This document shows positions 233 to 32,892 of a DNA stretch of 38,259 nt, piece by piece (the first letter of the stretch is position 1; every line of letters starts with the position of its first letter). The notes beneath the pieces were generated by a model that was not told the DNA's origin, did no database searches, and was given only the letters and a program-made list of their open reading frames with translations. The DNA comes from Nemertoderma westbladi. Lineage: Eukaryota; Animalia; Xenacoelomorpha. The DNA is taken from positions 1-38,259 of the forward strand of contig JAUCBJ010007437.1 of assembly GCA_032718475.1 (NCBI GenBank). Direction: 5' to 3'. The translations under genes were made by a program, and so were the position numbers.

Positions 233-1454
233 TGTACGCGCTTTTGAAGACCTTTAGCAGTTTAACCTGCCAAAATTTATATGTCTTTTGGTTTATAAAT
301 AGACTTTAGAAAATGACAAGTATTTAATACCAATAAACACAACATTAGCCGAAGCCAGCCTAGTGCGCGTCCATTCACCCGCTGGATATACCCGGGAGAC
401 TGGATTCGGAGGGCTTAGATTGTTATTGCAGTGTAAGCTTACTGTATTATTCGATTGATCGTTAATAAATAATTTCTGACTAATATTATTCACTTTCGGG
501 AAATATTAACAGTTCCTTTAGGACGTGGCGCTCTATCTAGGTAAACAGAGATATGACTTATACTAAACACAACGGTAAGTAGGTAAGGCTTATGATTCAC
601 GTATGAGGCGCATTCTTTAGGAAATGCTTAGTTATCAGCCACAATCATGCACACTACCGGTAACGCACAATACTGCACACTAATCTGCCGACCGTCAATG
701 AATTTTATCATACATAAAGAGAACAGCAATTGACTCATGTAGTGCCTATCAAATAGCATTAAACTCACTACAAACCACGATAATATAAGTCGCAATCGCT
801 AAATGTAACCTGTCTCTCTAACCTGTAGTGTATCAAGAAAATTGGGAAATTTGGGTTCTTTATAGATGTTCTCCAAATAATATTCAACCAACTGATACAA
901 AATAATAACAACAGTAAAAGCATTAAGACGGTAGGTTAAGATATGATATGACAATGTATGTGCCGATTGAGCCGATAACAGTTATACGCTCTATAATCTA
1001 AGCCTACTAATGTTTCTTCTAAAGTCTGAAACGAATTGACTCTAGAGCCGGTGTTCCTGGCCTAGATAGAAACAACACAACAGTAACAAGAACTCTCTGA
1101 CTCTAACACCGTTGCAGGTATCTTTTTACACAGAGAGGAATAGCTCTCATTGGCAGAACCCCAGATTCCACAGGTTCCACGAATATCTAAATGCCGAACT
1201 ATCAGGATTTTTGCAGCCCTTGGCCAACACACAAAATGAGTCACTCCGCTCGGTTGCCCTGGTTGCATACTCTGCTGCTATAGCTCTGGTTGGCCGATAG
1301 AACATAGCAAAGAGCCCCTCGTATAACAAATCAGCCAATCAGCCGGTCGCTTTGCATCATTCGCGTTAGAGAGCTTTTTAGAGTATTCCAGCGCCTGGGA
1401 GGGAACTGGATTGCAAAGCAAAAGGGCCAGTTACATCCCACAAAAGCTTTTACA
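233..1454 (-). repeat. 3' LTR of BEL copy 1
   Basis: Direct repeat of 11667-12888 (offset 11434); about 4 substitutions seen by eye; inverted match to 31658-32892. Confidence 0.96.
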
Positions 1455-1462
1455 CCGCTCCC
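1455..1462 (-). promoter_or_regulatory. Polypurine tract (plus-strand primer)
   Basis: GGGAGCGG directly precedes the TG of the 3' LTR on the minus strand; same motif at 31650-31657 in copy 2. Confidence 0.75.
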
Positions 1463-1532
1463 AGAAAATGGGATTTGAGTCTATAAAATATACAAAATCA
1501 CAGTTTCTAATATACGTAAATACTCTAAACAG

Positions 1533-3126
1533 TTAGTCTTTCTTGCGCGGACGGCGTTTACGCAGTTTTTTAAAGCTGGCCAGAGTCTTTTTCTCTTTGG
1601 GGGGAGCCACTTTACAAGGAGGGCTATAACTCCTGGGTGAAGGGTGCAATATGATTGCATCAGAGGGTGTAGGATTATGGTCGGTGTATCCGCCGGTCGA
1701 AGTGCCGGGTTGGTTGACATTAACGTCGGGGGAGAGGGGTCTAACGGCCTTTAGAGCGCGTTTTAGGACAGATGCTCTTACGGGTCCTTTACGAGTGGTC
1801 TGAACGAGAGCCGTGGGTGGACCATAGGCAGTCAGAAACTTCCTGGGTTTAATGGTTCTTTCCAACTCGCGTTCGCGGGCTCGGTATTCGTAAGGCCGTC
1901 GATATACTTCCTGTAACTCGGGGTGTGAGTTAACAAATAAGTCTGCATAGTCCGGATCTTGAAGGATAAAATTGATTAAGTTATAGGAATGAATGTCGCT
2001 AGGATTAACACTCCTGAGAAATTTGCGCACAAATTTGGTTGAAATACATTCTCCGACGCGCTTCAGTAGTTCGTAACTCGATATGCGTGATTTCTGTTCG
2101 ACAGAAGCGAATAGATAAGGATGGAACGCATAAACTCCTTCGTAAGCGCGTCCAGGATAATAGCGATGGCGCGAATCACAATGTAAATCAGCGTTCGCTT
2201 CCCAAGCTCTGATGTAATGTAGTGTAATCATTTCATCTACGCTTTCCAATCGTGATTAAAAGGGCAATCGAAACTGGCGTGTCCCTTTAGTTGACAATGG
2301 TGACATTGAGTCATAAATTGAGGGCAAACCGCAAAAAATGTGCAAGTTATTGAGTCTGCAATATGCACAATAAATTTCCATCGCCGGTTTTTCGTGGAAA
2401 TAGGAACAGCAGACGTTTGTGTCTATCAGTTTGTTGGTTGGGTCTAGGGCATTCGTCACAATAACACCAAAGACGTACGTCCTGTAGAGGAAACGCGGGT
2501 GATCGTTCTCCAGTTTTGCAATATTCTTCCATTTGTTCAAAACTATCCGGGATAACAGGTAGTGGACGATCGGCGGTAAGATACATCATAGTGAAATAGA
2601 GCTGTTTGAGTTCTACAATAGGGTCATGATGTATACCTTGAGGATATCGAGTCTCTAGGTTCTGCTGACTGGCGATGTTGAGATAAGTTTCTCTCAAAAA
2701 TTCCAGGTAGTCGTTGAAGTCGAGGCATTTATCCGGTTCTTCAACGTTTTCTCTTTCCAGTCTGTTACGAATAGAATTTTCGTGATCTATTCTCGGTTTA
2801 TCGTTACGACTCCGCTGGGTATGATATTTAAATATAACCATTTCCCTTTCGGTGTCTACATCGTCCGTATCATGTAAATCGATAGGATGGCCGGTAGTTA
2901 AGAAGTCCATATACGTACCATTACGATTCGTATAGCGAGCGGTGAATTTTCGATAGTCCAATTCACGCGTAAGTTGCTCTTGGGACATCGGCGGTTCGAT
3001 ATAACGACCATCGTCCTCCGTAATGGTTGGATCGGCTTCACCGCGTATTAAGCTATCCACAAATGCTTGTAAAGGTAGAGTATATCGCTCCCTAATACCA
3101 AGATCATCTTCTATCAACTCTGTCAT
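1533..3126 (-). pseudogene. Accessory 3' gene of the BEL element (multi-CCHC zinc-knuckle protein with basic C-terminal tail), copy 1, two frameshifts
   Basis: ORFs 2347-3126, 2256-2540 and 1533-2249 join into one protein when aligned with copy 2 (30132-31579); motifs CAYCRLNNLHIFAVC, CHHCQLKGHASFDC and C-terminal KKLRKRRPRKKD. Confidence 0.8.
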
Positions 3127-3950
3127 ATCTGCTATCTGAGTTTATTAATATCAAAATGAGTTTATGTTTAGGCTAGCGGGCGTCGCTGCCTACCTCTCGT
3201 TGCACCCGGACAGTGGGATTCTCAGCGCCGATGTACCGTCGTCGCGGTGTTTACGCCAACATGTAGCAACAGCACGACAACTATAACCGGCATAAGTCAC
3301 TCCACTGTCCGTCCCAAAGGCTTGGATCCACTTTAGGTTCTTTCTATAGGAGAGTTGGGTTACTTTCACAATTGCGACTAGCTACTGTAAACATACTTTA
3401 GCAGTAACATTCACCTATAAACGCACAAATTCCACACAACTGTCACCAATTGTACACATACAGGCCATTTGTCCATTAGTCAGTGCCTTCCAGAATGTCA
3501 CGTTATTACTGTGTATCCTTGGATACTATGTGTGCTATGTATTCTCTATGCTATGCAATGGGACAAGCTTTCTATTGTTCTTTTAACTTGCTTCTAATTC
3601 TAGCGTGGGTGTTGCTATGGTGACATTATGGAAAGCTAGCGGTAGAATTAGGGTAATTCTCATGCATACAGATCTGGAATGCTATTTAATAGTAATTCTT
3701 TAATTGTCAATATCCTCTTTATACATGATTTTATTAATTTTATCGGCTATTGACTATATGTTGGAGATTCTCGCACTCTAATACACTCAATAGGATGAAT
3801 CTCCGCTCCCATGATCTATTAATTAATGGAATTTTGGGAATGTTATAAATTGCACAAAATGACAATTTATGAAATTTATTTAAAATATGAATTTAAATTT
3901 ATTCCCGTGAATTTTATTATTTGATGTTAAAATTGACACAATTTTTATTT

Positions 3951-4206
3951 CAGAGCATGTCTGGGGACTGAGGATCCTTAATTCTATAAAATTGTCTTTT
4001 AAGAGTATCGGTAAATGCTGCGATATCTTAATGGACTAGAAATTTTAAAGGATCTGAATTTTACAGATTTTAATAAATATTAAATTAATATTTAAGATGG
4101 GCACCGATTTATTCCAGAACTTGTCTGGGGACGTTAACCACTGATTCTAGAATTTGTCTTTCAAGTATATCGGTGGGTGCCGCGATATCTTAATCGACTA
4201 GAATTA
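3951..4206. repeat. Diverged tandem duplication (about 164-bp period) in the non-coding spacer between pol remnant and accessory gene
   Basis: cagagcatgtctggggac...gcgatatcttaatggactagaa (from 3951) recurs as cagaacttgtctggggac...gcgatatcttaatcgactagaa (from 4115); also in copy 2 at about 29050-29310. Confidence 0.75.
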
Positions 4207-4753
4207 CAGATGAGTCAAAAGGTTTAACAGATTTATTTGCGTTTTACGCTACTGTTATAGGGACATCACGCTACTATATGTATTATTATATATGGTATGA
4301 GAGCAATATCGCACGAAGCAATGTCAGTGTGAAGAGGCAAGTCGTTTCCAAGGTCTACCCAGAGCTTGGTTTAGCCGAGACACGAGGATCTGAACTTTGC
4401 ATTCCTAATACTCTGCCTACCAATAATACTTGAATATAGTAGTGGCTTTATTGTACTTTAATAAGTACGGACATTTCATCTTACTGTAGTCACGTATTTA
4501 TAATATGATACGGACAGTAAGGAAAGAGAAAAATAATTATTTCTCGCCGTCGCACTAAATATATATTATAAGTAATTACGTACGTAATAAACACTAATAT
4601 ATTGCACTAATCTACTAAATAATCACTAAAATAACATTCTACTAAATAAAATTAAAGAAAACGATTATAATAAAATTACATAATAATACATACATAAATA
4701 TAAAATACAAACAAATATAAAATGATATAGTCACACGCCCACTCCATATGTTA

Positions 4754-7700
4754 TTAAGTTATGGAGTCCCTAGATATTTGTCGGATTAGGGAAGTGGTCG
4801 TAGGAAGAGTATCTTGCCTTCCATAGTTTCCGGACAGTTTTCGGTCTCTTTCCAGTAAACATAAACGATCAGCTGGGCGATTGAGTTGTTGTGTTACTTT
4901 CTCCGCTCCCTTGGCCTGTCTAATCTCCGCCGTTGTAAGATGAGGAGGCCATTCTTCTTCTTCTTTACTTAAGAAGTCGGATCCACCTAACCAGCCTGGA
5001 GTATCTATCAGTTCTTGAGGAGTTGCTCCTCTGGAAGCGATGTCGGCTGGATTAATCGTCCCAAGGCAATGTCTCCATTGATCTACATTGGAGTTAATAT
5101 CGTCATTATCTGAGGAGTATGGTGTTCCCTCAGTTGGATCGTCCACATCACTGCTCTCCACTTCCCATTCCTTTACTTGGTATACCTGTTGTTGAGGTAA
5201 TCTCTCTTTGAGAGTTCTACGGGAAGGGCCAGTGAAGTACCAACCTACTCTAGTTCTTACCGCATAGGTTTGTAGTGGCTGCGGTTGAGCAGGCCGTTTC
5301 TCCAATGTCTCGAGCGCCTCATGCGCGTTTTGGCCGATGAGTATTTGCACTCCAGGATAATCTGTCTGGAATCGAGGTATCTTAAGATGTTGGATGCTCT
5401 CATCCTCATCCCAATTATAAAGGTCTGCTTGGGTAGTAGCGAAGTTCTTTATAGCCACCATTTTTACCGACCTTATACCTTGTGCTCCTAATTTATCCTG
5501 GGGGGTGGACAACACACCTACATAGTAATCTGCCGTTAGGGTAGATTTCCAAACCTGCATAATTCCTAACATATTCAATTTAGTCCGGAATTTGGGTTGT
5601 CCAGCAAAGATATCTTCGGCTAGTTCTTGATCGATGAATGTTCCTGTGCTGCCGGAGTCAAGGAGGGCGTTCACTATGTAACTTTTGTTTGGACCGTGAA
5701 CTCTTACCTGCACTACAGGAAATTCTCTGATTCCTACGTTGGAAGTTGGAGCTTTCCAAGATGGTTGTCTGGCAAAAGTAGTTGGGGGGAACTCATTGTC
5801 GGTGTCCTTTTCATAAGTAAGTGCTCGATACACTGAGGTATTTATTAGGTAACAGGATTCGTTGGCGTCAGAGAATTCGTCAGTATAGAATCCTTCCATC
5901 TCAGACTCTTGATCAGTGTCATTTACATCACTGAATTGGACATGTAGTTCGGGCTCACTTACCTGACTCGGGTTGTCTCGTTCGAACTCACTGTGTAACA
6001 AGATGTGATGTTTCGCGCCACACTTTGCACACTTTACGTCGGAGTAACAGGTTCGCCGTTGGTGTCCTTGTCTGAGGCAATTATAGCATAACCGCTTATC
6101 CCACATGACTTCACGTCTGTCTACCAGGGATTTCTTTAGGAATTCAGCACACACACTCAAACGGTGGGGCCCGTCGCACAGCGCACATTTTGGTTTGATG
6201 TTACTCACTTTACCTTGGGTAACGTTATGCACTCTCGTTCTTTCTTCGGGATTTCTTCCGTGAATTCTCTTAGGAGACGTAGGAGGAGTTGTTGTTACCT
6301 GTTCTCTCCTGTCACTGGTTCGAGACTTATATTTACTTACGTCTTTATAGGTCTTGTTGTCATAGTAAGATTTTGCTGTGTCTTTCCCGCTGTCCTCTTC
6401 TTGAGAAGCTTGGCTTTCGCCGTCGTCAGTATAACACACTGGTATTATCCTTCTCCTAGAAACGGGTTTCTCACTTACCTTATTTTCCGATGTTTTCTCT
6501 CTGGACTGCTTTATGAGTTGTAATTTTACTTCACTATCTAAGAAGGACATGAGATCAGCCATGGTAGGGCTTCGTCGTTGCTGCTCATTCATGTACAACA
6601 CTTTCTTGTCCCAGCGTGTACATACTCCACCCTTTGGTAAAGTAGAGACTACGGCTCCAATAACCATGGAACTCTGATATTCATGAGACTTACCTAACCA
6701 GTCCAATTGTCTACAGATCTCCTGAATCTCATCGGAAAACTCTATAATCCCGCTACTAGGAAAGTTTCGGGGGGCTACTAATTTTGCATACAAATACTTA
6801 TCTATGTTATCCTTGTTACCATACCTGATGTTTAATGTATCCCAAACTTGTCTTAATCCATCTGGATGTCCAATAAACTTTAACGCCATTAACTTGGGAG
6901 GTCCTTCCAAGCACTTGATGAGGAATCTAAGTTTCTCTCCATTAGATAGTACAGAGTTCTGTATGCTATCTTTGTAATATTCATTGAAAGGTAACCATTT
7001 CATCTCATCTCCATTGAATTTGACGATCTCTCCCACTTTGACCACTTGGCGGGCTTCTGTTCTAGCCATCTGATGCGTAAAGCTTTCTTGGGCCATCGTG
7101 TTATTTAATATCGAATTATCGGTATATGAATTTCTCGGATTATTATCAGGTCTATAGGGAATATCATTAACAACAGGTTTATAATCACCCTTAACCCTAT
7201 CCATACCGGGGGGGGGGGGACTTTTGGAGACGCACTTTATTTGATTGCTTGGTTCAAAGCCAAACCACATTTATTGCAAGTGAAATTCCGTTACTTTTCC
7301 TAAAATTTATTATTCTTTATCTTAAAACAAAAATTAATTTTAATATTATTATTTATGACCATGAAAATGACTCGTAAACTGATCTGTCTCTGAAACTGTC
7401 ATATTATTGCTGAACTATTATAGGAGGGAAATTTAAAATTCAATCAATTTAATATCAATTTAAAATCAATTTAAACATAATTATAGTATATAAATATTAT
7501 ATTTGAGCATTAGTGTGTGGCATATTTGGATAGAGGAATAAATTTTGTATCTAAAACTTTTTACTTTAAAGTAATATCATCACACCACACAAAGTTATAT
7601 GCTTCCAAACTTTACGTCCCCAAAAGTCCCCCCCCCCCCCGGTAGTTTGAGCGTCTAAAATACCCCGGTATGGATAGGGTTAATAGGGTTTGCTATAGGA

Positions 7701-9325
7701 GTTTCTACTTCACTAGCAGTATAGATGCGTGTAGGCTCCACACCTTGCGCATGTAATACTTCAGACCTAACAGGTTGACACAATGTTACTGGGGGTATTG
7801 GTATACCCTTTTGTATATTGACTAATTTGTCACGTTCTAGCGCGATGCTTTGCTGCACTTCTTGCAATTCTGCCCTACTTTCCCTTACTGTTCCCTTAAG
7901 TTGGTAGACAGTCTCCTGCATCTGTCCGAGCAGGAGATTCATCCCCCGCCGTCCCTCCTCTACCCACTCGACCGCCGAAGCGGGAGTTGCCAACATTGTA
8001 GCGGGCTGACGTGGGACGACGGGAGACAAATCTTTGATTTCTCTCTCAGCTTCCAGGACAGGGATATTCTCATGGACTGTTCTACCGGGTACAGGCAGTG
8101 TAGTACTGTGTAAAGGGAATTTAGAGTTAAGCTCTGGAAGTACAGGGGTCTCTAGCACAGGAGTGGCTTTGGGAACGACAGGCCTAATTATTTCAGGCTC
8201 ATCAACTATTGTAGGGAGTCTTTTGACCTGAATAATTTGTTCTGTGGGTTCTGTACTACCTAAGTCTGTGCTAGCTAGTTGTCTTCTAACCGCTGGGGGC
8301 AAATCAGGCAATTTGTGACGGTGAGATGTTTTTCTACGCCTGCTTAGACGAGATCTATTTCCTCCGCCTTCAGGATCGGTGGTCTCGCCTTCCTCCGATG
8401 ATGTGTATCCTTGGCGCTTGGGAGTAGATCGACTCCTCATCTGCATTTGACTAGCAGTTAACTGTTTATTTATGCAGTCTTGCGTCTCTTGAAGATTTTC
8501 CAACTCCAGTTGTGTGGTCTCTTCAGACGCTCTCTGTTCTGCTTCTGCCAATGCCATTGCTGCTGCTGCTTTGGCTGCTTCCACTGCCGCTGCCGCTTTT
8601 GCCACTTCCACTGCTAATGCCTTTCTGTCCTCTATCGCTTTTTTCTTTACTTGTTCTTCTTGGACTCTAACGAGGCGGAGTTTTTCATCAAATTTAGCTT
8701 GGTTTGCAGCTAACATTTCCGCATCGATTGCGTCCAACACAAGCTTGGTTCCTTCACTATTAGGGCGAAGTCCAGACAGTCATCTCCTCAACTCTTCGTC
8801 TCCTATGAATCGCTGATAGTCTGACAGATAGATGTCAATGGCGTCTCTAGTTCGCGGCTTCTCTGCTGCTGTTAATTCGCTTTCCACTTCGCTTTCCACC
8901 TCGCTTTCCACTTGAGAAGAAGTGGCGTCGGTTGATTCTTCATAGGTTGGCCGCTCATCATAAACCGTATCCGCCATCTTCGCTCCGCGTTCGGGCGTCC
9001 GCTCAACAGTATCCGAACTACTGGAGCTATCGGGCCGCTGAGAACTAGGTTCTTGGCTAGGAGGTTGCTGCTGTTTTATAGCTTCTTCTTGATCCCGCTT
9101 GACTTGGGCCCGAGTACCTATGGCAGACCAACGGCGCTTCACTAACTTCGCAAATTGCGAAATCTTTTCTACCAACCTAGGTTCTGACACAACCACTGCA
9201 GGGGTTGCCCTTCTTACAGTATGAGGGGTTTCAGACCTCGGTCTGGGATTCTCTACACTTTGATCTGAGAAACAGGCTGTTGTTTCTAGGAGACTATCTG
9301 ACAGAGTTTGCCTTGTGTCAGCCAT
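4754..9325 (-). pseudogene. gag: BEL/Pao Gag-protease polyprotein with deleted pol, copy 1; interrupted by one in-frame TGA (8780-8782) and a MITE
   Basis: ORFs 8780-9325, 7655-8740 and 4754-7270 form one frame (1361 codons) once the MITE and one TTAA are removed. DUF1759-type capsid (KFNGDEMKW...EKLRFL...L..RYG), three knuckles (CALCDGPHRLSVC, CYNCLRQGHQRRTC, CAKCGAKHHILLH), protease ALLDSGS/ILIG, RNase H tail WRHCLGTINPADIASRG, pol C-terminus RPADRLCLLE. Confidence 0.92.
7195..7679. mobile_element. piggyBac-type MITE (485 bp) inserted in gag
   Basis: TIR CCCTATCCATACCGGGG at both ends; TTAA duplicated at 7191-7194 and 7680-7683; asymmetric subterminal inverted repeat (accg-polyG-acttttgg / ccaaaagt-polyC-ggt); absent from copy 2. 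Confidence 0.93.
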
Positions 9326-9460
9326 GTTTGATTGTACAGTTGAATGCCTACTGCTATATTACAGTTAAAGCAAGTCTAGTAATTCAGTATCACTGTTAGC
9401 CTAATAATTAATTACCGATACTGCTACTCAGTGTAGCGTGATATATATATAATATATTAG

Positions 9461-9712
9461 AATACCGGTATGCTTATAGTATATATATAAGTATTATTAC
9501 AGACTAGATTTGTCACAGAGTACCGGTATATAATTTTAGCACAAATATATATAAATATATAATAGGCCTATCGTGAATACCGGTATACAGCTGACACTTA
9601 TAGTATATATAAGTATAATTATTACAGACTAGAATTAATTACAGAATACCGGTATGATTTCAGCCTAAATTTATAGAATAAATATAATAAGCCTATTGTA
9701 AATACCGGTATG
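9461..9712. repeat. Diverged tandem duplication (about 115-125-bp unit) with periodic TACCGGTA just upstream of the gag ATG
   Basis: aataccggtat...ttatagtatatataagta...ttattacagactaga...taccggtat...gcctat occurs twice; conserved in copy 2 at about 25262-25515. Confidence 0.7.
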
Positions 9713-10701
9713 TCAATTATTTTAAAATAATTGAATTTCTGAATGTTAGGGGTTACTTGGTTACTTTACTTACTTTATTACCGTTATTTGAGCAGCAGTC
9801 CAACTGATATTAAGACCTAAGTGTTGTATAACAGGCCTACTATTTTATTAATAGATTTAGTGGATTTATATGTATATACCCGTATGAGGGGTTTTGTTAC
9901 AATATTGAAATAGATGTTATTATTTCTGGGAAGTAATCACTACACAAAAGCTGTGCGCTCTCAGTGAAGTGCTACTTATTGGACACTAAAACAGATAATT
10001 CTAATTTACCTAAGTTACTTATCTACGAATTACTTACGATACGGGTGAGATTAAATCTCTAAATAAACACAACAAAAATATTACGTACGAAATTTTAGGG
10101 TAATTTTACAGGAAGTCTACAAACCAGCCTAACAAAGGGTTAGAATTCTGGTTATTACAACGGACAGGATACTACGGTATTTGAAAATAATAAGTAGTAG
10201 TAAATACACTGTGTTGTCCAGATAGGAAAAATACCACCGTCTGACGACCTATAGCCGTATCGCTATAGGTACTACGTTATGTATCACGGAGTGTCCCTAC
10301 CTAGAAGTTAATTACCGCGGTCTACCAGAACCAACGTGCCTATTAACCACTTTACAACACAAATATACTGCCTACACACTAATTACCTTCGGAAAGCACT
10401 GTACACTAAACCCTAAATTAGGTACAAGTACTGGTACAACAAATAATCAGTAGTTAAAAATACTTGAACAGCTAAAAGAACCACGGCATCTGCTGGAGTG
10501 ACCGGTGCACAAGATCACCAGTCTTTACCTACGCCAAGCAGCCCGTGTAGTACCGGGGTTAATTTAACTATAACGGTATGTATAACAAGCACAATTACTG
10601 TAGGAATAAACTTAGGGACATGAATGTTGCGAATAATCGCATAAACTCTGAATAATAAATATTACGCTACCCGTACAGAATACTCAAACAAAATACAAAC
10701 C

Positions 10702-11230
10702 AAACGCTGGCAGACTACCACCAAGCCTAAATAAACTACAGTATGTGCAGATTCCAAAATGGTTAGTTAGTATGCGTTCTAACACGGTAGTACGACTTAT
10801 TCTTTAAGAGGGGATTGACCTTACAGCTCTGGCTGCCCCAACTTACTAACTGGCACTTTATCAGACAAACTCTACACACGCAGCAATCTCTTCAGACCTA
10901 ATAATAGCTAGACAACAATCCAGCCTACAAAATATCTGAGTAATAACTATTACGGTACCTGAACAGACCACACAAACAAACACAGGCTAAAACGCTGGCA
11001 GACTACTATCAAGCCTAAATAAACTACAGTATGTGCAGATTCCAAAATGGTTAGTTAGTATGCGTTCTAACACGGTAGTACGACTTATTCTTTAAGAGGG
11101 GATTGACCTTACAGCTCTGGCTGCCCCAACTTACTAACTGGCACTTTATCGGACAAACTCCACACACGCCGCAATCTCTCCAGACCCAACAACAGTCAGA
11201 CAACAGTCCAGCCTACAATTATCTGAACAA
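10702..11230. repeat. Tandem duplication (288-bp period) in the BEL 5' leader
   Basis: aaacgctggcagactac...ccagcctacaa starts at 10702 and again at 10990, with a near-identical core. Confidence 0.88.
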
Positions 11231-11414
11231 TCTGAGCAGACTTACACGTCTTCAGCTCAATATTAACTTACATGTAAATAAAACCGACAGAAATAAGTAA
11301 AATCTCAATAAAAAACCAGGGCTGCAGTCCCTGATTAAATACTAAGACCTACCGGTATACAATAATCAAAATCGAATAATACTAATGTACTTATACTGGA
11401 AGTACCGGTTAGGA

Positions 11415-11604
11415 CAGTTGGGCCTACAGACCTACAGCAGTACCGGTTCAGGCAGTTAGGCCTACGGACCTACAGCAGTACCGGTTCTGGCAGTTGGGCC
11501 TACGGACCTACAGCAGTACCGGTTCTGGCAGTTGGGCCTACGGACCTACAGCAGTACCGATTCTGGCAGTTGGGCCTACGGACCTACAGCAGTACCGGTT
11601 CAGG
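11415..11604. repeat. 38-bp minisatellite, 5 copies, just inside the 5' LTR
   Basis: Unit cagttgggcctacggacctacagcagtaccggttctgg repeated head to tail without spacers. Confidence 0.95.
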
Positions 11605-11666
11605 TTTACCGGTCGACCGGTACTTTCAACTTTATTGCTTACTGCAATAAAGACAATAACTGTTAT

Positions 11667-12888
11667 TGTACGCGCTTTTGAAGACCTTTAGCAGTTTAAC
11701 CTGCCAAAATTTATATGTCTTTTGGTTTATAAATAGACTTTAGAAAATGACAAGTATTTAATACCAATAAACACAACATTAGCCGAAGCCAGCCTAGTGC
11801 GCGTCCATTCACCCGCTGGATATACCCGGGAGACTGGATTCGGAGGGCTTAGATTGTTATTGCAGTGTAAGCTTACTGTATTATTCGATTGATCGTTAAT
11901 AAATAATTTCTGACTAATATTATTCACTTTCGGGAAATATTAACAGTTCCTTTAGGACGTGGCGCTCTATCTAGGTAAACAGAGATATGACTTATACTAA
12001 ACACAACGGTAAGTCGGTAAGGCTTATGATTCACGTATGAGGCGCATTCTTTAGGAAATGCTTAGTTATCAGTCACAATCATGCACACTACCGGTAACGC
12101 ACAATACTGCACACTAATCTGCCGACCGTCAATGAATTTTATCATACATAAAGAGAACAGCAATTGACTCATGTAGTGCCTATCAAATAGCATTAAATTC
12201 ACTACAAACCACGATAATATAAGTCGCAATCGCTATATGTAACCTGTCTCTCTAACCTGTAGTGTATCAAGAAAATTGGGAAATTTGGGTTCTTTATAGA
12301 TGTTCTCCAAATAATATTCAACCAACTGATACAAAATAATAACAACAGTAAAAGCATTAAGACGGTAGGTTAAGATATGATATGACAATGTATGTGCCGA
12401 TTGAGCCGATAACAGTTATACGCTCTATAATCTAAGCCTACTAATGTTTCTTCTAAAGTCTGAAACGAATTGACTCTAGAGCCGGTGTTCCTGGCCTAGA
12501 TAGAAACAACACAACAGTAACAAGAACTCTCTGACTCTAACACCGTTGCAGGTATCTTTTTACACAGAGAGGAATAGCTCTCATTGGCAGAACCCCAGAT
12601 TCCACAGGTTCCACGAATATCTAAATGCCGAACTATCAGGATTTTTGCAGCCCTTGGCCAACACACAAAATGAGTCACTCCGCTCGGTTGCCCTGGTTGC
12701 ATACTCTGCTGCTATAGCTCTGGTTGGCCGATAGAACATAGCAAAGAGCCCCTCGTATAACAAATCAGCCAATCAGCCGGTCGCTTTGCATCATTCGCGT
12801 TAGAGAGCTTTTTAGAGTATTCCAGCGCCTGGGAGGGAACTGGATTGCAAAGCAAAAGGGCCAGTTACATCCCACAAAAGCTTTTACA
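11667..12888 (-). repeat. 5' LTR of BEL copy 1
   Basis: 1222-bp direct repeat of 233-1454, TG...CA, followed by TSD ATACC. Confidence 0.96.
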
Positions 12889-16859: not shown

Positions 16860-17675
16860 ATGGCAGCTGAATACATGTCTGTTCACCCGTTTGACTATTA
16901 CAATAAATTTATACAGCAGGATATCCGTCCTGATGGGCGGAGCCTCTCGGAATTTCGTCACACAATACTAACCACTGGCACGATAAATACAGCCGACTCA
17001 TCGGCCACCGTAAAACTCGGACAGACCTTCCTGTGTTGCGGCATTAAACTGGAACTAGGCAAACCCACGGAGGACAATCCGAATGAAGGCTTTATCGTAC
17101 CCAACATCGAGATGACTCCGCTGTGCGAGACGTCATTTAAACCCGGACCACCCTCCGCCTACCAACAGGCCGCCAACCAATACCTGTTGGAACTCCTGAC
17201 TAACTCGGAGGTTATTGACCTCACCCAGTTGTGTGTCACCCAGGGCGAACTGTGTTGGTGCATCTACGCTGATATTGTGTGTCTCAACTGGGACGGTAAC
17301 ATTCGTGACGCTAGTTGGATCGCCCTAATAACAGCGCTCTCTCGACTCAAACTTCCTCGAATCGTCTTTGACGAAGAAACTCAGAAACATTTACTCGATA
17401 AGGAAACAACTCAGAAACACCTGGATGTCAATCCGATTCCAGTTTCAACGACTTTCGCGATATTCAATGATTCCATTGTTATAGTTGATCCAAACTTACA
17501 GGAAGAGAAAATCACTCGGTCTACATTGTCTATAGCCATCACTAAAGATGGGGAAGTATGTAGCGTTTATAAATCTGGTGGTTCTGGTTTGAAGACTTGC
17601 CAACTAGGTGTCTGTATGAGACGAGCGTTAGAACGTGCAGTAGATATTATAGAGCTAATTGATAAAACAGCATAA
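16860..17675 (+). CDS. EXOSC8: Exosome complex component RRP43 (RNase PH family), single-exon CDS
   Basis: 271-aa ORF; N-terminus MAAEYMSVHPFDYYNKFIQQDIRPDGRSLSEFR resembles animal EXOSC8; RNase PH motifs SATVKLG, FKPGPP, DIVCLNWDGN, DP...EE, KSGG. Confidence 0.93.
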   Translation: MAAEYMSVHPFDYYNKFIQQDIRPDGRSLSEFRHTILTTGTINTADSSATVKLGQTFLCCGIKLELGKPTEDNPNEGFIVPNIEMTPLCETSFKPGPPSAYQQAANQYLLELLTNSEVIDLTQLCVTQGELCWCIYADIVCLNWDGNIRDASWIALITALSRLKLPRIVFDEETQKHLLDKETTQKHLDVNPIPVSTTFAIFNDSIVIVDPNLQEEKITRSTLSIAITKDGEVCSVYKSGGSGLKTCQLGVCMRRALERAVDIIELIDKTA

Positions 17676-19264: not shown

Positions 19265-20128
19265 TTAACTATCAGTGACTGCTTCAGTGTCTAGTTTCCG
19301 TTTACGAATTCCTGACTCTTCATCAGAAACATCGTCATCTTTACCTAAGTGCACGTCGGTGCTGTTATCGTTGGCAGTCTGTAAGTCGCTGTCTGTGTCC
19401 GCAGACATTACCTTATCTACAGGGTCGTCACCTGTAGTAATCGTCTCTCTGGGTCGACGTTTCGACCTAAACATCATCTGCATGACGTCGATACAACCGA
19501 CCATAGCAATACCCAGGAGTAGACCCCCGACAACGGTGAACAGACCGAAAAGGCAATAGGATGCCCAATCAGGGAGACCCAGGGTCTCCGTTTGGTACGT
19601 ATGTAAAGCTCGGAAATACATGGAAACATTAAAAATCATCGACATTCCTTCCATAAGAACGGAATTCGGCGACAAGTACCAAGATAATGGTTCTAGTTGG
19701 GTCCATTTCTTATCGGTTATAAGTGCGACTAGTTCCTGGGCGTCTCGTGGGCCGTTGTACTGCCGGAATTCCCCTCCTATCGCGTGGAACACGCTCGGTA
19801 AACGGGTGATTGTGAACCGACCGCTGAGCCCCGGCTGCTCCGTTATATCCACGTCGGCTACTCGGATCCCGAGTTCGCGCGACTTGGAGGCGAGATGTTT
19901 CCACGCCGGCACCGTCGCTCGGCACGCAGGACACCATGGCGCGAAAAACTCGAGCATCCACTCCCCGTCCAGAACCTGCCGCCAGTTCCCTTCGTCCAGG
20001 TGGATGACCTCTGATTCCGTCTCAGTCTGACAAGAATAGACGGGGAGTTGTATGGTAATAAGTATTAATGATATCGATATGATTATTGCAATAGGCCTAC
20101 TATTGCAAATTGATTCCTTGAAATCCAT
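19265..20128 (-). CDS. TMX1: Thioredoxin-related transmembrane protein 1-like, single-exon CDS
   Basis: First ATG at 20128; hydrophobic signal peptide, thioredoxin domain FFAPWCPAC (CPAC typical of TMX1), QPGLSGRF, one TM helix, acidic tail with IRKRK ER-retention-like motif. Confidence 0.9.
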   Translation of the reverse strand: MDFKESICNSRPIAIIISISLILITIQLPVYSCQTETESEVIHLDEGNWRQVLDGEWMLEFFAPWCPACRATVPAWKHLASKSRELGIRVADVDITEQPGLSGRFTITRLPSVFHAIGGEFRQYNGPRDAQELVALITDKKWTQLEPLSWYLSPNSVLMEGMSMIFNVSMYFRALHTYQTETLGLPDWASYCLFGLFTVVGGLLLGIAMVGCIDVMQMMFRSKRRPRETITTGDDPVDKVMSADTDSDLQTANDNSTDVHLGKDDDVSDEESGIRKRKLDTEAVTDS

Positions 20129-24471: not shown

Positions 24472-25650
24472 GTTACACATACCGTTATAGTTAAATTAAC
24501 CCCGGTACTACACGGGCTGCTTGGCGTAGGTAAAGACTGGTGACTTTGTGCTCCGGTCACTCCAGCAGATGCCGTGGTTCTTTTAACTGTTCAAGTATAT
24601 TTAACTACTGATTATTTGTTGTACCAGTACTTGTACCTAATTTAGTTCCTAATTTAATAATTTAGTTAATTAACTTCCAGGTAGGAACACTCCGTGATAC
24701 ATAACGTAGTACCTATAGCGATACGGCTATAGGTCGTCAGGCGGTGGTATTTTCCTATCTGGACAGTGCAATATATTTACTACTACTTATTATTTTCAAA
24801 TACCGTAGTACCCTGTCCGTTGTAATAACCAGAATTCTAACCCTTTGTTAGGCTGGTTTGTAGACTTCCTGTAAAATTACCCTAAAATTTCGTACGTAAT
24901 ATTTTTGTTGTGTTTAGTTAGAGAATTAATCTCACCCGTATTGTAAGTAATTCGTAGATAAGTAACTTAGGAAGTAGAATTATCTGTTTTAGTGTCTAAT
25001 AAGTAGCACTTCACTGAGAGCGCACAGCTTTTGTGTAGTGATTACTTCCCAGAAATAATAACATCTATTTCAATATTGTAACAAAACCCCTCATACGGGT
25101 ACATATAAATCCACTAAATCTATTAATAAAATAGTAGGCCTGTTATACAACACTTAGGTCTTAATATCAGTTGGACTGCTGCTCAAATAACGGTAATAGA
25201 GTAAGTAAAGTAACCAAGTAACCCCTAACATTCAGAAATTCAATTATTTTTAAAATAATTGACATACCGGTATTTACAATAGGCTTATTATATTTATTCT
25301 ATAAATTTAGGCTGAAATCATACCGGTATTCTGTAATTAATTCTAGTCTGTAATAATTATACTTATATATACTATAAGTGTCAGCTGTATACCGGTATTC
25401 ACGATAGGCCTATTATATATTTATATATAGTTGTGCTAAAATTATATACCGGTACTCTGTGACAAATCTAGTCTGTAATAATACTTATATATATACTATA
25501 AGCATACCGGTATTCTAATATATTATATATATATCACGCTACACTGAGTAGCAGTATCGGTAATTAATTATTAGGCTAACAGTGATACTGAATTACTAGA
25601 CTTACTTTAGCTGTATTTATAGCCGTAGGCATTCAACTGTGTAAACAAAC

Positions 25651-28620
25651 ATGTCTGACACAAAACGGGCACTGTCAGATAGTCTTTTGGAAGGTGTTAG
25701 AATGAGTCTTAGACTTGGACAGGGTCTTGAAAGGAAGATGGCAGAGGCAATGGCAACAGCAGAAGCGGAAAGAAAGGCGGCAGAGACAATGGCAACAGCA
25801 GAAGCGGAAAGAAAGGCGGCAGAGGCAATGGCAACAGTAGAAGCGGAAAGAAAGATAGCGACACCTGTACTCCCAGAACCTGCCTATAAATTCCCTTTGT
25901 ACAGTACTAAACTACCTGTGCCCAGTAGGACTGTTCCCGAGTCCGAACCCATCCTGGACGCCGAGCGAGATATCAAGAATTTATCGCCCGTCGTCTCTCG
26001 CTCGCCCGCTACTACGTTGGCGACTCCCGCTTCGGCGGTTGAGTGGGTAGCTGAGGGACGACGGGAGATGGGTCTCCTGCTCGAGCAGCTGAGGGAACAC
26101 TGTTTCTGCTCCTCTCAGCAGGTCCGGGAAATGGAAGAGACTGTTCAGCAGTTCAAGGGAACAGTCAGGGAAAGTAGGTTAGAGTTGCAAAAGGTGCAGC
26201 AAAGTATCGCGTTAGAACGCGATAAATTAGTCAATTTACAAAAGGGTATACCACCACCCCCTGTAACAATGTGTCAACCCGTTAGGTCTGAAGTATCTCA
26301 TGCGCAAGGTGTGGAGCCTACACGCATCTATACTGCTAGTGAAGTAGAAACTCCTATAGTAAACCCTATTCAGGGTAATTATAAACCTGTTGATAATAAT
26401 ATTCCATATAGACCTGATCATAATCCGAGAAATTTATATACCGATAATTCTATATTCAATAGTACGATGGCTCAAGAAAGTTTTACGCGTCAAATGGCTA
26501 GAACCGAAGCCCATCAAGCGGTAAAGGTTGGAGAGATCGTCAAGTTCAATGGAGATGAGATGAAATGGTTACCTTTTAATGAATATTACAAAGATAACAT
26601 ACAGAATTCTGTGCTATCTAACGGAGAGAAACTCAGATACCTCATCGAATGCTTGGAAGGACCTCCCAAGTTAATGGCGTTAAAATTTATTGGACATCCA
26701 GATGGATTAAGACAAGTTTGGGATACATTAAACATCAGGTATGGTAATAGGACTAACATAGCTAGGTATTTATATGCGAAATTAATGGCGCCCCGAAAGT
26801 TTCTTAGCAGCGGGATTATAGAATTTTCCGATGAGATTCAGGAGATCTGTAGACAGCTAGATTGGTTAGGTAAGTCTCATGAATACCAGAACTCTATGGT
26901 TGTAGGAGCCTTAGCATCTACTTTACCAAAGGGTGGAGTAGGTACACGCTGGGACAAGAAAGTGTTATATATGATGGAACAACAACAACGAGACCCTACC
27001 ATGGCTGATCTCATGTCCTTCTTAGATAGTGAAGTAAAATTACAACTCATAAAGCAGTCCAGAGAGAAAACATCGGAAAATAAGGTAAGTGAGAAACCCA
27101 TTTCTAGGAGAAGGGTAACACCAGTGTGTTATACTGACGACGACGAAAGCCAAGTCTCTCAGGAAGAGGACAGCGGGAAAGACACAGCAAAATCTTACTA
27201 TGACAACAAGACCTATAAAGACGTAAGTAAATATAAGTCTCGAACCAGTGACAGGAGAGAACAGGTAACAACAATTCCTCCTACGTCTCCTAAGAGAATT
27301 CGCGGAAGAAAGCCCGAAGAAAGAACGAGAGTGCATAACGTTACCCAAGGTAAAGTGAGTAACATCAAACCAAAATGTGCGCTGTGCGACGGGCCCCACC
27401 GTTTGAGTGTGTGTGCTGAATTCCTAAAGAAATCCCTGGTAGACAGACGTGAAGTCATGTGGGATAAGCGGTTATGCTATAATTGCCTCAGACAAGGACA
27501 CCAACGGCGAACCTGTTACTCCGACGTAAGGTGTGCAAAGTGCGGTGCGAAACATCACATCTTGTTACACAGTGAATTCGAACGAAACAACCCGAGTCAG
27601 GTAAGTGAGCCCGAACTACATGTCCAATTCAGTGATGTAAATGACACTGATCAAGAGTCTGAGATGGAAGGATTCTATACTGACGAATTCTCCGACGCCA
27701 ACGAATCCTGTTACCTAATCAATACCGTGGTGTATCGAGCACTTACTTACGAAAAGGACACCGACAATGAGTTCCCCCCAACTACCTTTGACAGACAACC
27801 ATCTTGGAAAGCTCCAACTTCCAACGTAGGAATCAGAGAATTTCCTGTAGTGCAGGTAAGAGTTCACGGTCCTACCAAAAGTTACATAGTGAACGCCCTC
27901 CTTGACTCCGGCAGCACAGGAACATTCATCGATCAAGAACTAGCCGAAGATATCTTTGCTGGACAACCCAAATTCCAAACTAAGTTGAATATGTCCGGAA
28001 TTATGCAGGTTTGGAAATCTACCATAACGGCAGATTACTATGTAGGTGCGTTGTCCACCCCCCAGGATAAATTAGGAGCACAAAGTATAAGGTCAGTAAA
28101 AATGGTGGCTATAAAGAACTTCGCTACTACCCAAGTAGAACCTTATAACTGGGACGAAGACGAGAGCATCCAACAGCTTAAGATACCTCAATTCCAGACA
28201 GATTATCCTGGAGTACAAATACTCATCGGCCAAAACGCGCATGAGGCGCTCGAGACATTGGAGAAACGGCCTGCTCAACCGCAGCCACTACAAACCTATG
28301 CGGTAAGAACTAGAGTAGGTTGGTACTTCACTGGCCCTTCCCGTAGAACTCTCAAAGAGAGATTACCTCAACAACAGGTATACCAAGTAAAGGAATGGGA
28401 AGTGGAGAGCAGTGATGTGGACGATCCAACTGAGGGAACACCATACTCCTCAGATAATGACTATATTAACTCCAATGTAGATCAATGGAGACATTGCCTT
28501 GGGACGATTAATCCAGCCGACATGCGTGTGACTATATCATTTTATATTTGTTTTTATTTTATATTTATGTATGTATTATTATGTAATTTTATTATAATCG
28601 TTTCCTTTAATTTTATTTAG
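25651..28620 (+). CDS. gag: BEL/Pao Gag-protease, copy 2, uninterrupted 989-aa ORF
   Basis: Same capsid, triple knuckle, LLDSGS protease and NPAD motif as copy 1; short N-terminus with three AEAMATAEAERKA-type repeats; last about 30 aa are read into non-coding DNA after a deletion. Confidence 0.92.
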   Translation: MSDTKRALSDSLLEGVRMSLRLGQGLERKMAEAMATAEAERKAAETMATAEAERKAAEAMATVEAERKIATPVLPEPAYKFPLYSTKLPVPSRTVPESEPILDAERDIKNLSPVVSRSPATTLATPASAVEWVAEGRREMGLLLEQLREHCFCSSQQVREMEETVQQFKGTVRESRLELQKVQQSIALERDKLVNLQKGIPPPPVTMCQPVRSEVSHAQGVEPTRIYTASEVETPIVNPIQGNYKPVDNNIPYRPDHNPRNLYTDNSIFNSTMAQESFTRQMARTEAHQAVKVGEIVKFNGDEMKWLPFNEYYKDNIQNSVLSNGEKLRYLIECLEGPPKLMALKFIGHPDGLRQVWDTLNIRYGNRTNIARYLYAKLMAPRKFLSSGIIEFSDEIQEICRQLDWLGKSHEYQNSMVVGALASTLPKGGVGTRWDKKVLYMMEQQQRDPTMADLMSFLDSEVKLQLIKQSREKTSENKVSEKPISRRRVTPVCYTDDDESQVSQEEDSGKDTAKSYYDNKTYKDVSKYKSRTSDRREQVTTIPPTSPKRIRGRKPEERTRVHNVTQGKVSNIKPKCALCDGPHRLSVCAEFLKKSLVDRREVMWDKRLCYNCLRQGHQRRTCYSDVRCAKCGAKHHILLHSEFERNNPSQVSEPELHVQFSDVNDTDQESEMEGFYTDEFSDANESCYLINTVVYRALTYEKDTDNEFPPTTFDRQPSWKAPTSNVGIREFPVVQVRVHGPTKSYIVNALLDSGSTGTFIDQELAEDIFAGQPKFQTKLNMSGIMQVWKSTITADYYVGALSTPQDKLGAQSIRSVKMVAIKNFATTQVEPYNWDEDESIQQLKIPQFQTDYPGVQILIGQNAHEALETLEKRPAQPQPLQTYAVRTRVGWYFTGPSRRTLKERLPQQQVYQVKEWEVESSDVDDPTEGTPYSSDNDYINSNVDQWRHCLGTINPADMRVTISFYICFYFIFMYVLLCNFIIIVSFNFI

Positions 28621-30131: not shown

Positions 30132-31579
30132 ATGACGGAGTTGATAGAAGATGATCTTGGTATCAGGGAGCGATATACTCTACCTTTACAAGCATTTGTG
30201 GATAGCTTGATACGCGGCGAAGCCGATCCAACATTACGGAGGACGATGGTCGTTATATCGAACCGCCGATGTCCCAAGAGCAACTTACGCGTGAATTGGA
30301 CTATCGAAAATTCACCGCTCGCTATACGCATCGTAATGGTACGTATATGGACTTCCTAACTACCGGCCATCCTATCGATTTACATGATACGGACGATGTA
30401 GACACCGAAAGGGAAATGGTTCTATTTAAATATCATACCCAGTGGAGTCGTAACGATAAACCGAGAATAGATCACGAAAATTCTATTCGTAACAGACTTG
30501 GAAGACGAACCAATATGCCTAGAAGCTGAGGAGATTCAGCCTATCGCGCCCGGAACAGCGACAACGATTACATCCTAGAATGGTATCAAGGTCCACAGTG
30601 TCTCACTGCGTACGATTATCGCCATGCCAACTATGTTTCTCGGCAACGTTGTCGGTTATGCGCATCGAGAGACCATGTTACGCCCATGGACACAAACATC
30701 CGCTGTTCCTATTTCCACGAACAACCGGCGATGGAAATTTATTGTGCGTATTGCAGACTCAATAACTTGCACATTTTTGCGGTTTGCCCTCAATTTATGA
30801 CTCAATGTCACCATTGTCAACTAAAGGGACACGCCAGTTTCGATTGCCCTTTTAATCACGATTTGGAAAGCGTAGATGAAATGATCACACTACGTTACAT
30901 CAGAGCTTGGGAAGCGAACGCTGATTTACATTGTGATTCACGCCATCGTTATTATCTTGGACGCGCTTACGAAGGAGTTTATGCGTTCCATCCTTATCTA
31001 TTCGCTTCTGTCGAACAGAAATCACGCATATCGAGTTACGAACTACTGAAGCGCGTCGGAGAATGTATTTCAACCAAGTTCGTACGCAAATTTCTCAGGA
31101 GTGTTAATCCTAGCGACCTTCATTCATATAACCTAATCAATTTTATCCGTCAGGATCCGGACTATGGAGACTTATTTGTTAACTCAAACCCCGAGTTACA
31201 GGAAGTATATCGACGGCCTTACGAATACCGAGCCCGCGAACGCGAGTTGGAAAGAAACATTAAACCCGGGAAGTTTCTGACTGCCTATGGTCCACCCACG
31301 GCTCTCGTTCAGACCACTCTTAAAGGACCCGTAAGAGCGGCCGTCCTAAAACGCGCTCTCAAGGCCGTTAGATCCCTCTCCCCCGACGTTGATGTCAATC
31401 AACCCGGCACTTCGACTGGCGGATACACCGACCATAATCTTACACCCTCTGATGCAATCATATTGCACCCTTCACCCAGGAGTTATAGCCCTCCTTGTAA
31501 AGTGGCTCCCCCCAAAGAGAAAAAGACTCTGGCCAGCTTTAAAAAACTGCGCAAACGCCGTCCGCGCAAGAAAGACTAA
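30132..31579 (+). pseudogene. Accessory 3' zinc-knuckle gene, copy 2 (one 1-bp frameshift near 30235, one in-frame TGA at 30527-30529)
   Basis: ORFs 30269-30529 and 30686-31579 share a frame; the intervening codons read GDSAYRARNSDNDYILEWYQGPQCLTAYDYRHANYVSRQRCRLCASRDHVTPM. Confidence 0.82.
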
Positions 31580-31657: not shown

Positions 31658-32892
31658 TGTAAAAGCTTTTGTGGGATGTAACTGGCCCTTTTGCTTTGCA
31701 ATCCAGTTCCCTCCCAGGCGCTGGAATACTCTAAAAAGCTCTCTAACGCGAATGATGCAAAGCAACCGGCTGATTGGCTGATTTGTTATACGAGGGGCTC
31801 TTTGCTATGTTCTATCGGCCAACGGCTATAGCAGCAGAGTATGCAACCAGGGCAACCGAGCGGAGTGACTCATTTTGTGTGTTGGCCAAGGGCTGCAAAA
31901 ATCCTGATAGTTCGGCATTTAGATATTCGTGGAACCTGTGGAATCTGGGGTTCTGCCAATGAGAGCTATTCCTCTCTGTGTAAAAAGATACCTGCAACGG
32001 TGTTAGAGTCAGAGAGTTCTTGTTACTGTTGTGTTGTTTCTATCTAGGCCAGGAACACCGGCTCTAGAGTCAATTCGTTTCAGACTTTAGAAGAAACATT
32101 AGTAGGCTTAGATTATAGAACGTATAACTGTTATCGGCTCAATCGGCACATACATTGTCATATCATATCTTAACCTACCGTCTTAATGCTTTTACTGTTG
32201 TTATTATTTTGTATCAGTTGGTTGAATATTATTTGGAGAACATCTATAAAGAACCCAAATTTCCCAATTTTCTTGATACACTACAGGTTAGAGAGACAGG
32301 TTACATATAGCGATTGCGACTTATGTTATCGTGGTTTGTAGTGAACCTAATGCTATTTGATAGGCACTACATGAGTCAATTGCTGTTCTCTTTATGTATG
32401 ATAAAATTCATTGACGGTCGGCAAATTAGTGTGCAGTATTGTGCGTTACCGGTAGTGTGCATGATTGTGACTGATAACTAAGCATTTCCTAAAGAATGCG
32501 CCTCATACGTGAATCATAAGCCTTCCCGACTTACCATTGTGTTTAGTATAAGTCATATCTAGATACCTTTTACCTTTTACCAGTTTACCTAGATAGAGCG
32601 CCACGTCCTAAAGGAACTGTTAATATTTCCCGAAAGTGAATAATATTAGTCAGAAATTATTTATTAACGATCAATCGAATAATACAGTAAGCTTACACTG
32701 CAATAACAATCTAAGCCCTCCGAATCCAGTCTCCCGAATCCAGCGGGTGAATGGACGCGCACTAGGCTGGCTTCGGCTAATGTTGTGTTTATTGGTATTA
32801 AATACTTGTCATTTTCTAAAGTCTATTTATAAACCAAAAGACATATAAATTTTGGCAGGTTAAACTGCTAAAGGTCTTCAAAAGCGCGTACA
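31658..32892 (+). repeat. 3' LTR of BEL copy 2
   Basis: TG...CA, 1235 bp, inverted match to 233-1454 with small indels; preceded by GGGAGCGG. Confidence 0.95.

What the first reader, a model, noticed from the sequence alone, without database searches (positions are those of the whole stretch)
1533..3126. BEL/Pao family carrying a non-Env accessory gene: multi-zinc-knuckle protein with Arg/Lys-rich tail
Seen: both copies (here and 30132-31579) have a large sense-strand coding region between the pol remnant and the 3' LTR, about 1.5-1.6 kb after the gag stop. It has no signal peptide or TM helix. It does have CX2CX4HX4C (CHHCQLKGHASFDC), a variant knuckle (CAYCRLNNLHIFAVC), a third truncated one in copy 2 (CRLCASRDHVTPM), further Cys clusters and the C-terminus KKLRKRRPRKKD. 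Known: extra ORFs at this position in BEL/Pao elements (nematode Cer, Tas) are typically captured viral glycoproteins. Inference: a nuclear nucleic-acid-binding accessory factor (RNA export or chaperone, or anti-silencing), which would make this a complex retroelement that kept this gene while losing RT and integrase.
Basis: partly seen in the sequence, partly recalled or inferred. Interest (0 to 1): 0.85.

Follow-up and report, generated by a model that had tools for sequence, protein, structure and literature searches.

The report
Spliced zinc-knuckle gene in BEL retrotransposon
A multi-copy BEL/Pao jumping gene carries, where a viral coat gene can sit, an unrelated zinc-knuckle gene that is under purifying selection and likely made from a spliced RNA; its protein likely binds the element's own RNA in the nucleus, much as HIV Rev does, though both copies seen here are broken.

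Summary
The gene is real; its function is inferred. Two copies of a BEL/Pao LTR element (gag-protease kept, RT and integrase gone) carry a ~1.5-kb sense ORF before the 3' LTR. It has no membrane helix, a CCHC knuckle pair and a basic tail. It is frame-broken in both copies, and their middles differ.

It evolved as protein: dN/dS between the copies is 0.18-0.32 (gag-protease 0.26), and 20 of 25 variable sites among other copies are synonymous. New here: one contig in one public run joins a donor in the LTR (12257) to an acceptor 217 nt before the ATG (3343), exactly GT..AG. This points to an env-style spliced message.

No homolog or fold was found. The knuckle pair's best hit is yeast Air2 (E 0.016, weak). 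It is not Env, and a nested gag is unlikely.

Best reading: a trans-acting nuclear RNA-binding accessory protein that works like CERV or Rev (0.4). Non-Env third ORFs are known in Gypsy and plant elements; my searches found none for BEL/Pao. The scan had no note on this sequence; it has noted LTR-leader splicing in Gypsy elements of other genomes.

The parts
11667..12888 (-). 5' LTR of copy 1 (1222 nt, TG...CA)
   Evidence: 4 differences from the 3' LTR; 5-bp target duplication GGTAT on both sides
12251..12259 (-). Splice donor inside the LTR (exon ends at 12257; same site at 823 in the 3' LTR and 32286 in copy 2)
   Evidence: Contig joint 3324->823 in run X5 (table 5c) read in the element's sense; one of 4 distinct strong donor-like sites in the element
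9330..11666 (-). Long 5' leader with 38-, 288- and 125-nt tandem repeats; no tRNA-type primer site recognised
   Evidence: no Rfam match at gathering threshold
4754..9327 (-). gag (DUF1759, three-knuckle NC), protease and C-terminal RNase H remnant; stop at 8780 and a MITE break it in copy 1; RT and integrase absent
   Evidence: (tblastn with BEL polyprotein P0002)
7191..7681 (.). Inserted TTAA-flanked element with CCCT...AGGG ends (piggyBac-type MITE; label recalled)
   Evidence: absent from copy 2; empty-site joints in 4 of 4 runs; ends
3344..4753 (-). AT-rich non-coding spacer ending in the splice acceptor at 3344
   Evidence: longest stop-free run 74 codons in the copy-2 spacer; acceptor region identical in copy 2, ending at 29914
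3127..3343 (-). 217-nt leader of the likely spliced RNA; a 3-codon upstream ORF in both copies
1533..3126 (-). Third ORF, copy 1, broken: acidic start, copy-specific middle (2751-2427), knuckle pair (~2370-2265), helical part, basic tail
1455..1462 (-). Short purine-rich tract before the 3' LTR
233..1454 (-). 3' LTR of copy 1
24472..28620 (+). Copy 2, 5'-truncated: leader and open gag-PR frame with the same pol deletion
30132..31579 (+). Third ORF, copy 2, broken near 30231 and 30527; copy-specific middle 30506-30685; knuckle pair 30743-30847 in an unbroken 349-codon frame
31658..32892 (+). 3' LTR of copy 2

Best explanation
The third ORF is a selected accessory gene of this BEL/Pao family, likely expressed from an RNA spliced from the LTR, and its protein likely acts in trans in the nucleus, binding the element's unspliced RNA through its CCHC knuckles so that this RNA would be protected and exported (CERV/Rev-like). 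Shown: the gene, its position, selection, and one GT..AG joint. Inferred: the joint is linear 5'-LTR splicing; the basic tail is a nuclear or nucleolar signal; the knuckles bind RNA; the target is the genomic RNA, which keeps the spliced-out stretch (8.9 kb in copy 1) and so faces nuclear retention. Copies with a broken gene, like the two here, would be served by intact copies elsewhere, as they must be for RT and integrase.
For: Selection:
- dN/dS 0.32 (295 codons, Fisher p 0.003) and 0.18 (124 codons, p 0.01) between the copies; the other two frames give 0.63-2.78; gag-PR gives 0.26.
- Of 34 scored variants from other copies, those at mixed frequency are 20 synonymous to 5 not (expected share 0.22-0.31, p<1e-6); those where copy 2 differs from nearly all are 2 to 7.
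- Listed contig pieces inside the ORF show 1 gap per 227 differences, against 79 per 218 in non-coding parts.

Splicing:
- The X5 joint has exact GT..AG ends, at a consensus donor and at the acceptor-like site nearest the ATG; both sites are the same in copy 2.

Motifs:
- The best solved-structure hit of the knuckle slice is Air2 knuckles 2-3 (E 0.016), which PMC3384339 identifies among Air2's RNA-binding knuckles.
- No membrane helix; the last 49 residues hold 14 K/R.

Precedent:
Against: - No homolog or confident fold, so the function rests on motifs and analogy.
- The Air2 hit is marginal, came from a slice I chose, and is no stronger than the gag NC slice's hit to retroviral NC (E 0.014).
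- The splice joint is one contig in one run whose kind is guessed as DNA; identical LTRs also allow a back-splice from the 3' LTR.
- Some retroviruses export unspliced RNA through an RNA element, with no protein.
- No export signal or RNA response element was identified.
- Both copies here are broken, and copy 1 is young (4 of 1222 LTR differences) yet has three or more breaks.
- dN (0.014-0.026) is about equal to non-coding divergence (0.021-0.023); the signal is an excess of synonymous change.
Confidence: 0.4

Rival explanations
1. The gene is an old duplicate or capture of a gag/nucleocapsid. It now makes a separate NC-like RNA chaperone that helps packaging or priming inside particles.
For: The two knuckles align weakly with the element's own NC knuckles 1-2, including Cys-x-x-Phe after the first (E 0.068). 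No tRNA-type primer site was recognised after the 5' LTR, so priming might need help.
Against: No DUF1759 or other capsid family on the pieces scanned. Knuckle spacing differs from BEL NC. The ORF slice hits Air2 first and no lentiviral NC, whereas the gag slice hits retroviral NCs and no Air2. Best E against the BEL polyprotein P0002 is 0.13. No flanking repeats of a nested element.
Confidence: 0.2
2. The knuckles were captured from, or mimic, the host's Air2/ZCCHC7 adaptor. The protein shields element RNA from TRAMP/exosome decay or from small-RNA silencing.
For: Air2 is the top solved-structure hit. Atlas neighbours carry zf-CCHC, AIR2-like_ZnK4 and a ZCCHC7 cluster, at scores 0.77-0.85.
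Against: All Atlas scores are under 0.9, a level that shuffled proteins often reach. There are two complete knuckles, not five, and no IWRxY motif in the sequence. No similarity outside 39 residues.
Confidence: 0.17
3. The protein is a DNA- or chromatin-binding regulator of LTR transcription or an anti-silencing factor (Tat/Tas- or VANC-like; labels recalled).
For: Acidic N-terminal piece (net -17) and basic C-terminal piece (net +15 to +18), a layout common in activators. The 5' leader holds tandem repeats that could be binding sites.
Against: CCHC knuckles are known mainly as single-stranded nucleic-acid binders. No DNA-binding family was hit.
Confidence: 0.13
4. The region is a decaying relic or hitch-hiking host fragment with no present function.
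For: Five or more breaks over the two copies; copy-2-private changes look neutral (2 synonymous of 9); internal deletions are listed in other copies.
Against: Strong synonymous excess among copies, near absence of gaps in 15-18% diverged pieces, conserved splice sites and a spliced-form contig.
Confidence: 0.07

Closest known systems
CERV of Cer1, C. elegans Ty3/Gypsy element (PMC10309623; passages read)
   Same: [quoted passage not shown]
   Different: Cer1 is Gypsy, not BEL/Pao. CERV joins gag-frame exons to the ORF and has a candidate C4 finger. Here the ORF has its own ATG 217 nt after the acceptor and CCHC knuckles. No homology was detected, and export was not tested here.
Env-like third ORFs of BEL/Pao (Roo F-type, mosquito Chuviridae gB-type; PMC13524379 passages; ICTV profile PMC8742986 whole text; P0002 with Baculo_F)
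   Same: Same family, same slot before the 3' LTR, same strand.
   Different: No membrane helix, no fusion-protein family hit; zinc knuckles and a basic tail instead.
Non-Env ORF3s of bdelloid rotifer LTR elements (DEDDy, GDSL, CC, TM; PMC5408684 passages) and plant additional ORFs (PMC7264820, part 1 of 3 read)
   Same: [quoted passage not shown]
   Different: Other lineages; no CCHC ORF3 in the passages seen ('CCHC' and 'zinc' occur 0 times in PMC5408684).
Air1/Air2/ZCCHC7 TRAMP adaptors (PMC3384339 passages; PDB 2lli)
   Same: CX2CX5HX4C followed after a short linker by CX2CX4HX4C, as in Air2 knuckles 2-3.
   Different: Two complete knuckles and one partial, not five; no IWRxY; E only 0.016; element-borne.

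Membership tests
BEL/Pao (Belpaoviridae) element | LTRs of 0.2-1.2 kb flanking the internal region | tested here: met
   1222-nt LTRs, TG...CA, 5-bp target duplication; range
BEL/Pao (Belpaoviridae) element | BEL-type Gag (DUF1759, three-knuckle NC) and protease | tested here: met
   DUF1759 E 7e-14; three motifs; tblastn to BEL polyprotein P0002 E 1e-11
BEL/Pao (Belpaoviridae) element | RT, RNase H and integrase | tested here: not met
   Only a 42-residue RNase H end in copy 1; no RT or integrase match at E<5. A non-autonomous derivative, not a full member.
BEL/Pao (Belpaoviridae) element | 18-nt primer site for tRNA-Arg or tRNA-Gly; purine tract of about 10 nt | tested here: inconclusive
   No TGG-type start after the LTR; host tRNAs not available; 8-nt purine-rich tract
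Env-like ORF of BEL/Pao | Signal peptide, transmembrane helix, fusion-glycoprotein homology | tested here: not met
   Max hydropathy 0.96; no such Pfam family. No dedicated signal-peptide predictor was run.
Second or nested gag | Capsid domain, BEL NC spacing, own terminal repeats | tested here: inconclusive
   No capsid family, different spacing, no repeats; weak NC similarity E 0.068; models too poor for a fold test
CERV/Rev-like export factor | Expressed from a spliced element RNA | tested here: inconclusive
   One GT..AG joint contig in one run of uncertain kind; favoured, not proven
CERV/Rev-like export factor | Nuclear protein that binds genomic RNA and is needed for its export | not testable with these tools
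   Needs localisation, CLIP and knock-down
CERV family | Sequence homology to CERV | tested here: inconclusive
   No direct comparison; general searches returned no relative
Air1/Air2/ZCCHC7 | Five tandem knuckles and IWRxY | tested here: not met
   Two complete motifs; no IWRxY in the translations; features

The most novel reading that the evidence does not exclude
This is a 'complex' BEL/Pao retrotransposon, a kind my searches found no report of. A leader spliced from the LTR expresses a Rev-like nuclear protein built on host-type Air2/ZCCHC7 knuckles, which gets unspliced element RNA past nuclear surveillance. It comes in two subtypes with different middles, and it serves RT-less copies in trans.
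Probability: 0.25. Interest if true: 0.85.

Novelty: new variant of a known kind. Interest (0 to 1): 0.64.

Why it matters
BEL/Pao replication is described as poorly understood, and the only third gene named for the family in the sources I read is env-like. A selected, likely spliced, non-Env gene shows that this family too can carry a retrovirus-style accessory gene. If it exports or protects unspliced RNA, it would be another independent invention of a Rev-like factor, after lentiviruses and Cer1, from an unrelated protein. It gives a concrete junction and protein to test how LTR elements get intron-containing RNA past nuclear quality control.

Tried and rejected
Homology searches:
- No whole genome is held, so copy number, intact copies and the autonomous partner were not examined.
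- The 349-aa piece: 0 of 843 candidates. One hit among 1.84 billion representatives, P0001, rejected as a sum over eight repeats of a MORN protein, E 3e-4 each pairwise. No locus in metagenome or viral contigs. 0 solved-structure hits for the whole piece.
- The N-terminal piece: 0 of 403 longer candidates; Atlas hits all under 0.9 and inconsistent.

Structure:
- AlphaFold without alignment gave pLDDT 38 and 44.5. Foldseek found nothing at E<=0.001. Best VIA Z 7.0 for a three-helix stretch is within background.

Expression:
- No RNA holder listed: no evidence either way.
- Contig depth of X5 relative to X3 is high over 1054-3615 and in the LTR leader bins (8-58) and low over 3616-12155 (0.7-4.9, one bin 9.4), while X1/X3 stays at 1.1-2.3. 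This fits the spliced RNA, but the tool states that contig depth cannot rank parts of a gene, so I do not count it.
- X4 is only guessed to be RNA and its depth is roughly flat; not used.
- Twelve of the 15 listed table-5 joints were read in sense; none is GT..AG. Dropped: two repeats of the MITE joint and a 4-nt skip. 68 joints were not shown.

Middles:
- The two middles are not homologous (307 of 500 shuffles score as high). Whether they are two deletions of one longer gene or two subtypes is open; contigs show start-to-B, start-to-C and C-to-end joins.
- The frame of the copy-1 middle stays unresolved.

Other:
- No Rfam match in copy 1; no tRNA gene in the window.
- Paper searches for a non-Env BEL/Pao third ORF: 0 papers; listings, none on point by title or abstract start. 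Repbase, GyDB and subscription papers could not be searched. The sequence supplements of PMC3118150 were not opened and may hold related elements.

Full report
The element. The window holds two inverted copies of one LTR element. Copy 1 (233-12888, minus) has 1222-nt LTRs that differ at 4 places and a 5-bp target duplication, so it inserted recently. Copy 2 (24472-32892, plus) lacks its 5' end. Both encode a BEL-type Gag with DUF1759 and three knuckles, and a protease. Against a distant full BEL polyprotein (P0002, which ends in a baculovirus-F-type Env), the window matches Gag, protease and, in copy 1, the last 42 residues of RNase H, and nothing of RT or integrase. The 2,155 nt running from inside gag through protease to the start of the RNase H remnant align between the copies without a gap, so the pol deletion is shared. 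Copy 1's gag also carries a stop and a TTAA-flanked insertion. The host is taken to be an animal from the family's known range and from unchecked notes on this genome. No genome is held.

The observation. The third ORF, its position, the knuckles, the basic tail and the lack of a membrane helix are there. A knuckle pair arose in 0 of 20,000 shuffles. But neither copy is open from ATG to stop. Copy 1 has one-base gaps near 2339 and 2250 and a further frame change in its middle. Copy 2 has a gap near 30231 and a stop at 30527. The copies share the first 375 and last 894 nt, but their middles are unrelated. Contigs of other runs show both kinds of middle. The two one-base breaks of copy 1 are not among the 12 of 14 indels shown when runs are laid on copy 2, so they look rare or private.

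Is it a gene? Yes. Between the copies, dN/dS is 0.32 for the end part and 0.18 for the start part, against 0.26 for gag-protease; the alternative frames give 0.63-2.78. Four runs were laid on each copy (five different runs in all); each gave from 75 to over 100,000 contig pieces, so the family is multi-copy and diverse. Of 390 variant sites, the 40 best supported were shown; 34 lay in scorable frame. Sites at mixed frequency were 20 synonymous to 5 non-synonymous. Sites where copy 2 differs from nearly all others were 2 to 7 (Fisher p 0.004). This is the pattern of a gene selected in the family and decaying in this copy. The 31 listed pieces wholly inside the ORF carry 837 differences and 3 gaps. 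In one search, 13 non-coding pieces carry 218 differences and 79 gaps. Against this: dN is about equal to non-coding divergence, and divergence is uneven along the element (LTR 1.2%, spacers 2.1-2.3%, dS 8-13%). The copies may therefore be mosaics, and the selection may predate or lie outside the RT-less lineage.

How it is expressed. One search lists a joint in run X5 from 3324 back to 823 with 19 letters between. Those letters match window 3325-3343 at 13 of 19 (other offsets 3-7; LTR side 4), so the joint lies at 3343. Read in the element's sense, it runs from CAG|GT in the LTR (823, equal to 12257 in the 5' LTR) to a pyrimidine-rich AG at 3344, 217 nt before the ATG. The donor is one of 4 distinct strong donor-like sites in the element. 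The acceptor is one of 44 acceptor-like sites in the element, one of 3 in the spacer, and the nearest to the ATG. Both are unchanged in copy 2. A random break pair reads GT..AG with probability 0.0044, and none of 12 other joints read in sense does. Limits: it is one contig in one run, the run's kind is guessed as DNA, most joints were not shown, and a back-splice from the 3' LTR would look the same. I put linear splicing at about 0.8.

What the protein is. No relative was found among 5.8 billion proteins, 1.84 billion representatives, or viral and metagenome contigs; the one hit was a repeat artefact. Structure models were too poor to use. A 78-residue knuckle slice gave 4 solved-structure hits at E<=10, the best being Air2 knuckles 2-3 (E 0.016). 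The same-sized slice of the element's own NC gave 21 hits, mostly retroviral NC and no Air2. The Atlas placed the protein near zf-CCHC and Air2/ZCCHC7-like clusters, all under 0.9. These are leads only. It is not Env. A nested gag is unlikely but not excluded (E 0.068 to the own NC).

Mechanism. An element with a donor in its LTR and an acceptor after pol must still get unspliced RNA out of the nucleus to make Gag and to be packaged. Cer1 solves this with CERV, a spliced, nuclear, Cys-rich protein encoded in the same slot (PMC10309623, passages). RNA-type knuckles and a Lys/Arg tail fit the same job here, acting in trans, which would explain why young copies with a broken gene still move. I give this 0.4. 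An NC-like chaperone gets 0.2, an Air2-like shield against RNA decay 0.17, a chromatin regulator 0.13 and a relic 0.07. The gene being real and selected is about 0.93. Location, binding and export are untested.

Novelty. Extra non-Env ORFs are known in plant elements (PMC7264820, first third read), rotifer elements (PMC5408684, passages), Drosophila MDG1 elements (bioRxiv 2025.03.14.642691, passages) and Cer1. PMC2774666 (passages) names accessory genes for Retroviridae, Caulimoviridae and some Gypsy clades. For BEL/Pao, the ICTV profile (whole text), PMC3118150 and PMC13524379 (passages) mention only env-like genes. PMC3597677 (passages) lists one BEL element with a captured gene fragment. 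Searches gave no report of a zinc-knuckle third ORF in BEL/Pao; repeat databases were out of reach. Verdict: a new variant of a known kind, interest 0.64.

Noticed in passing
window 7191-7681: A ~490-nt insertion with TTAA duplication and CCCT...AGGG inverted ends (piggyBac-type MITE; label recalled) splits gag of copy 1; empty-site joints are seen in all four runs.
   Followed up: partly
window 11620-11670 (minus): Directly after the 5' LTR there is no TGG-type primer site; instead two short hairpin-like palindromes, then a 38-nt repeat (5.4 copies). Priming mode unknown.
   Followed up: no
window 2427-2751 and 30506-30685: Two unrelated middle segments at the same place of the third ORF; both occur in other runs. 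Two subtypes, or two deletions of a longer gene.
   Followed up: partly
window 21525-24290 (minus): Open 921-codon THAP/P-element-type transposase frame.
   Followed up: no
window 16860-17675 (plus) and 19265-20128 (minus): Intron-free RNase PH (exosome core-like; label recalled) and thioredoxin-domain membrane-protein genes; unchecked notes describe intron-bearing genes elsewhere in this genome.
   Followed up: no
window 20868-20936 and 24405-24473: A 69-nt inverted pair that brackets the THAP transposase gene, probably its terminal repeats; copy 2 of the BEL element begins right at the second.
   Followed up: no
window 30132-31579: CpG observed/expected is 1.37 in the third ORF against 0.79 in gag and 0.83 in the LTR, which may hint at a separate origin.
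   Followed up: no
window 33342-34957 and 35654-35822: Diverged ~590-nt repeats and an 11/23-nt tandem array outside the element.
   Followed up: no
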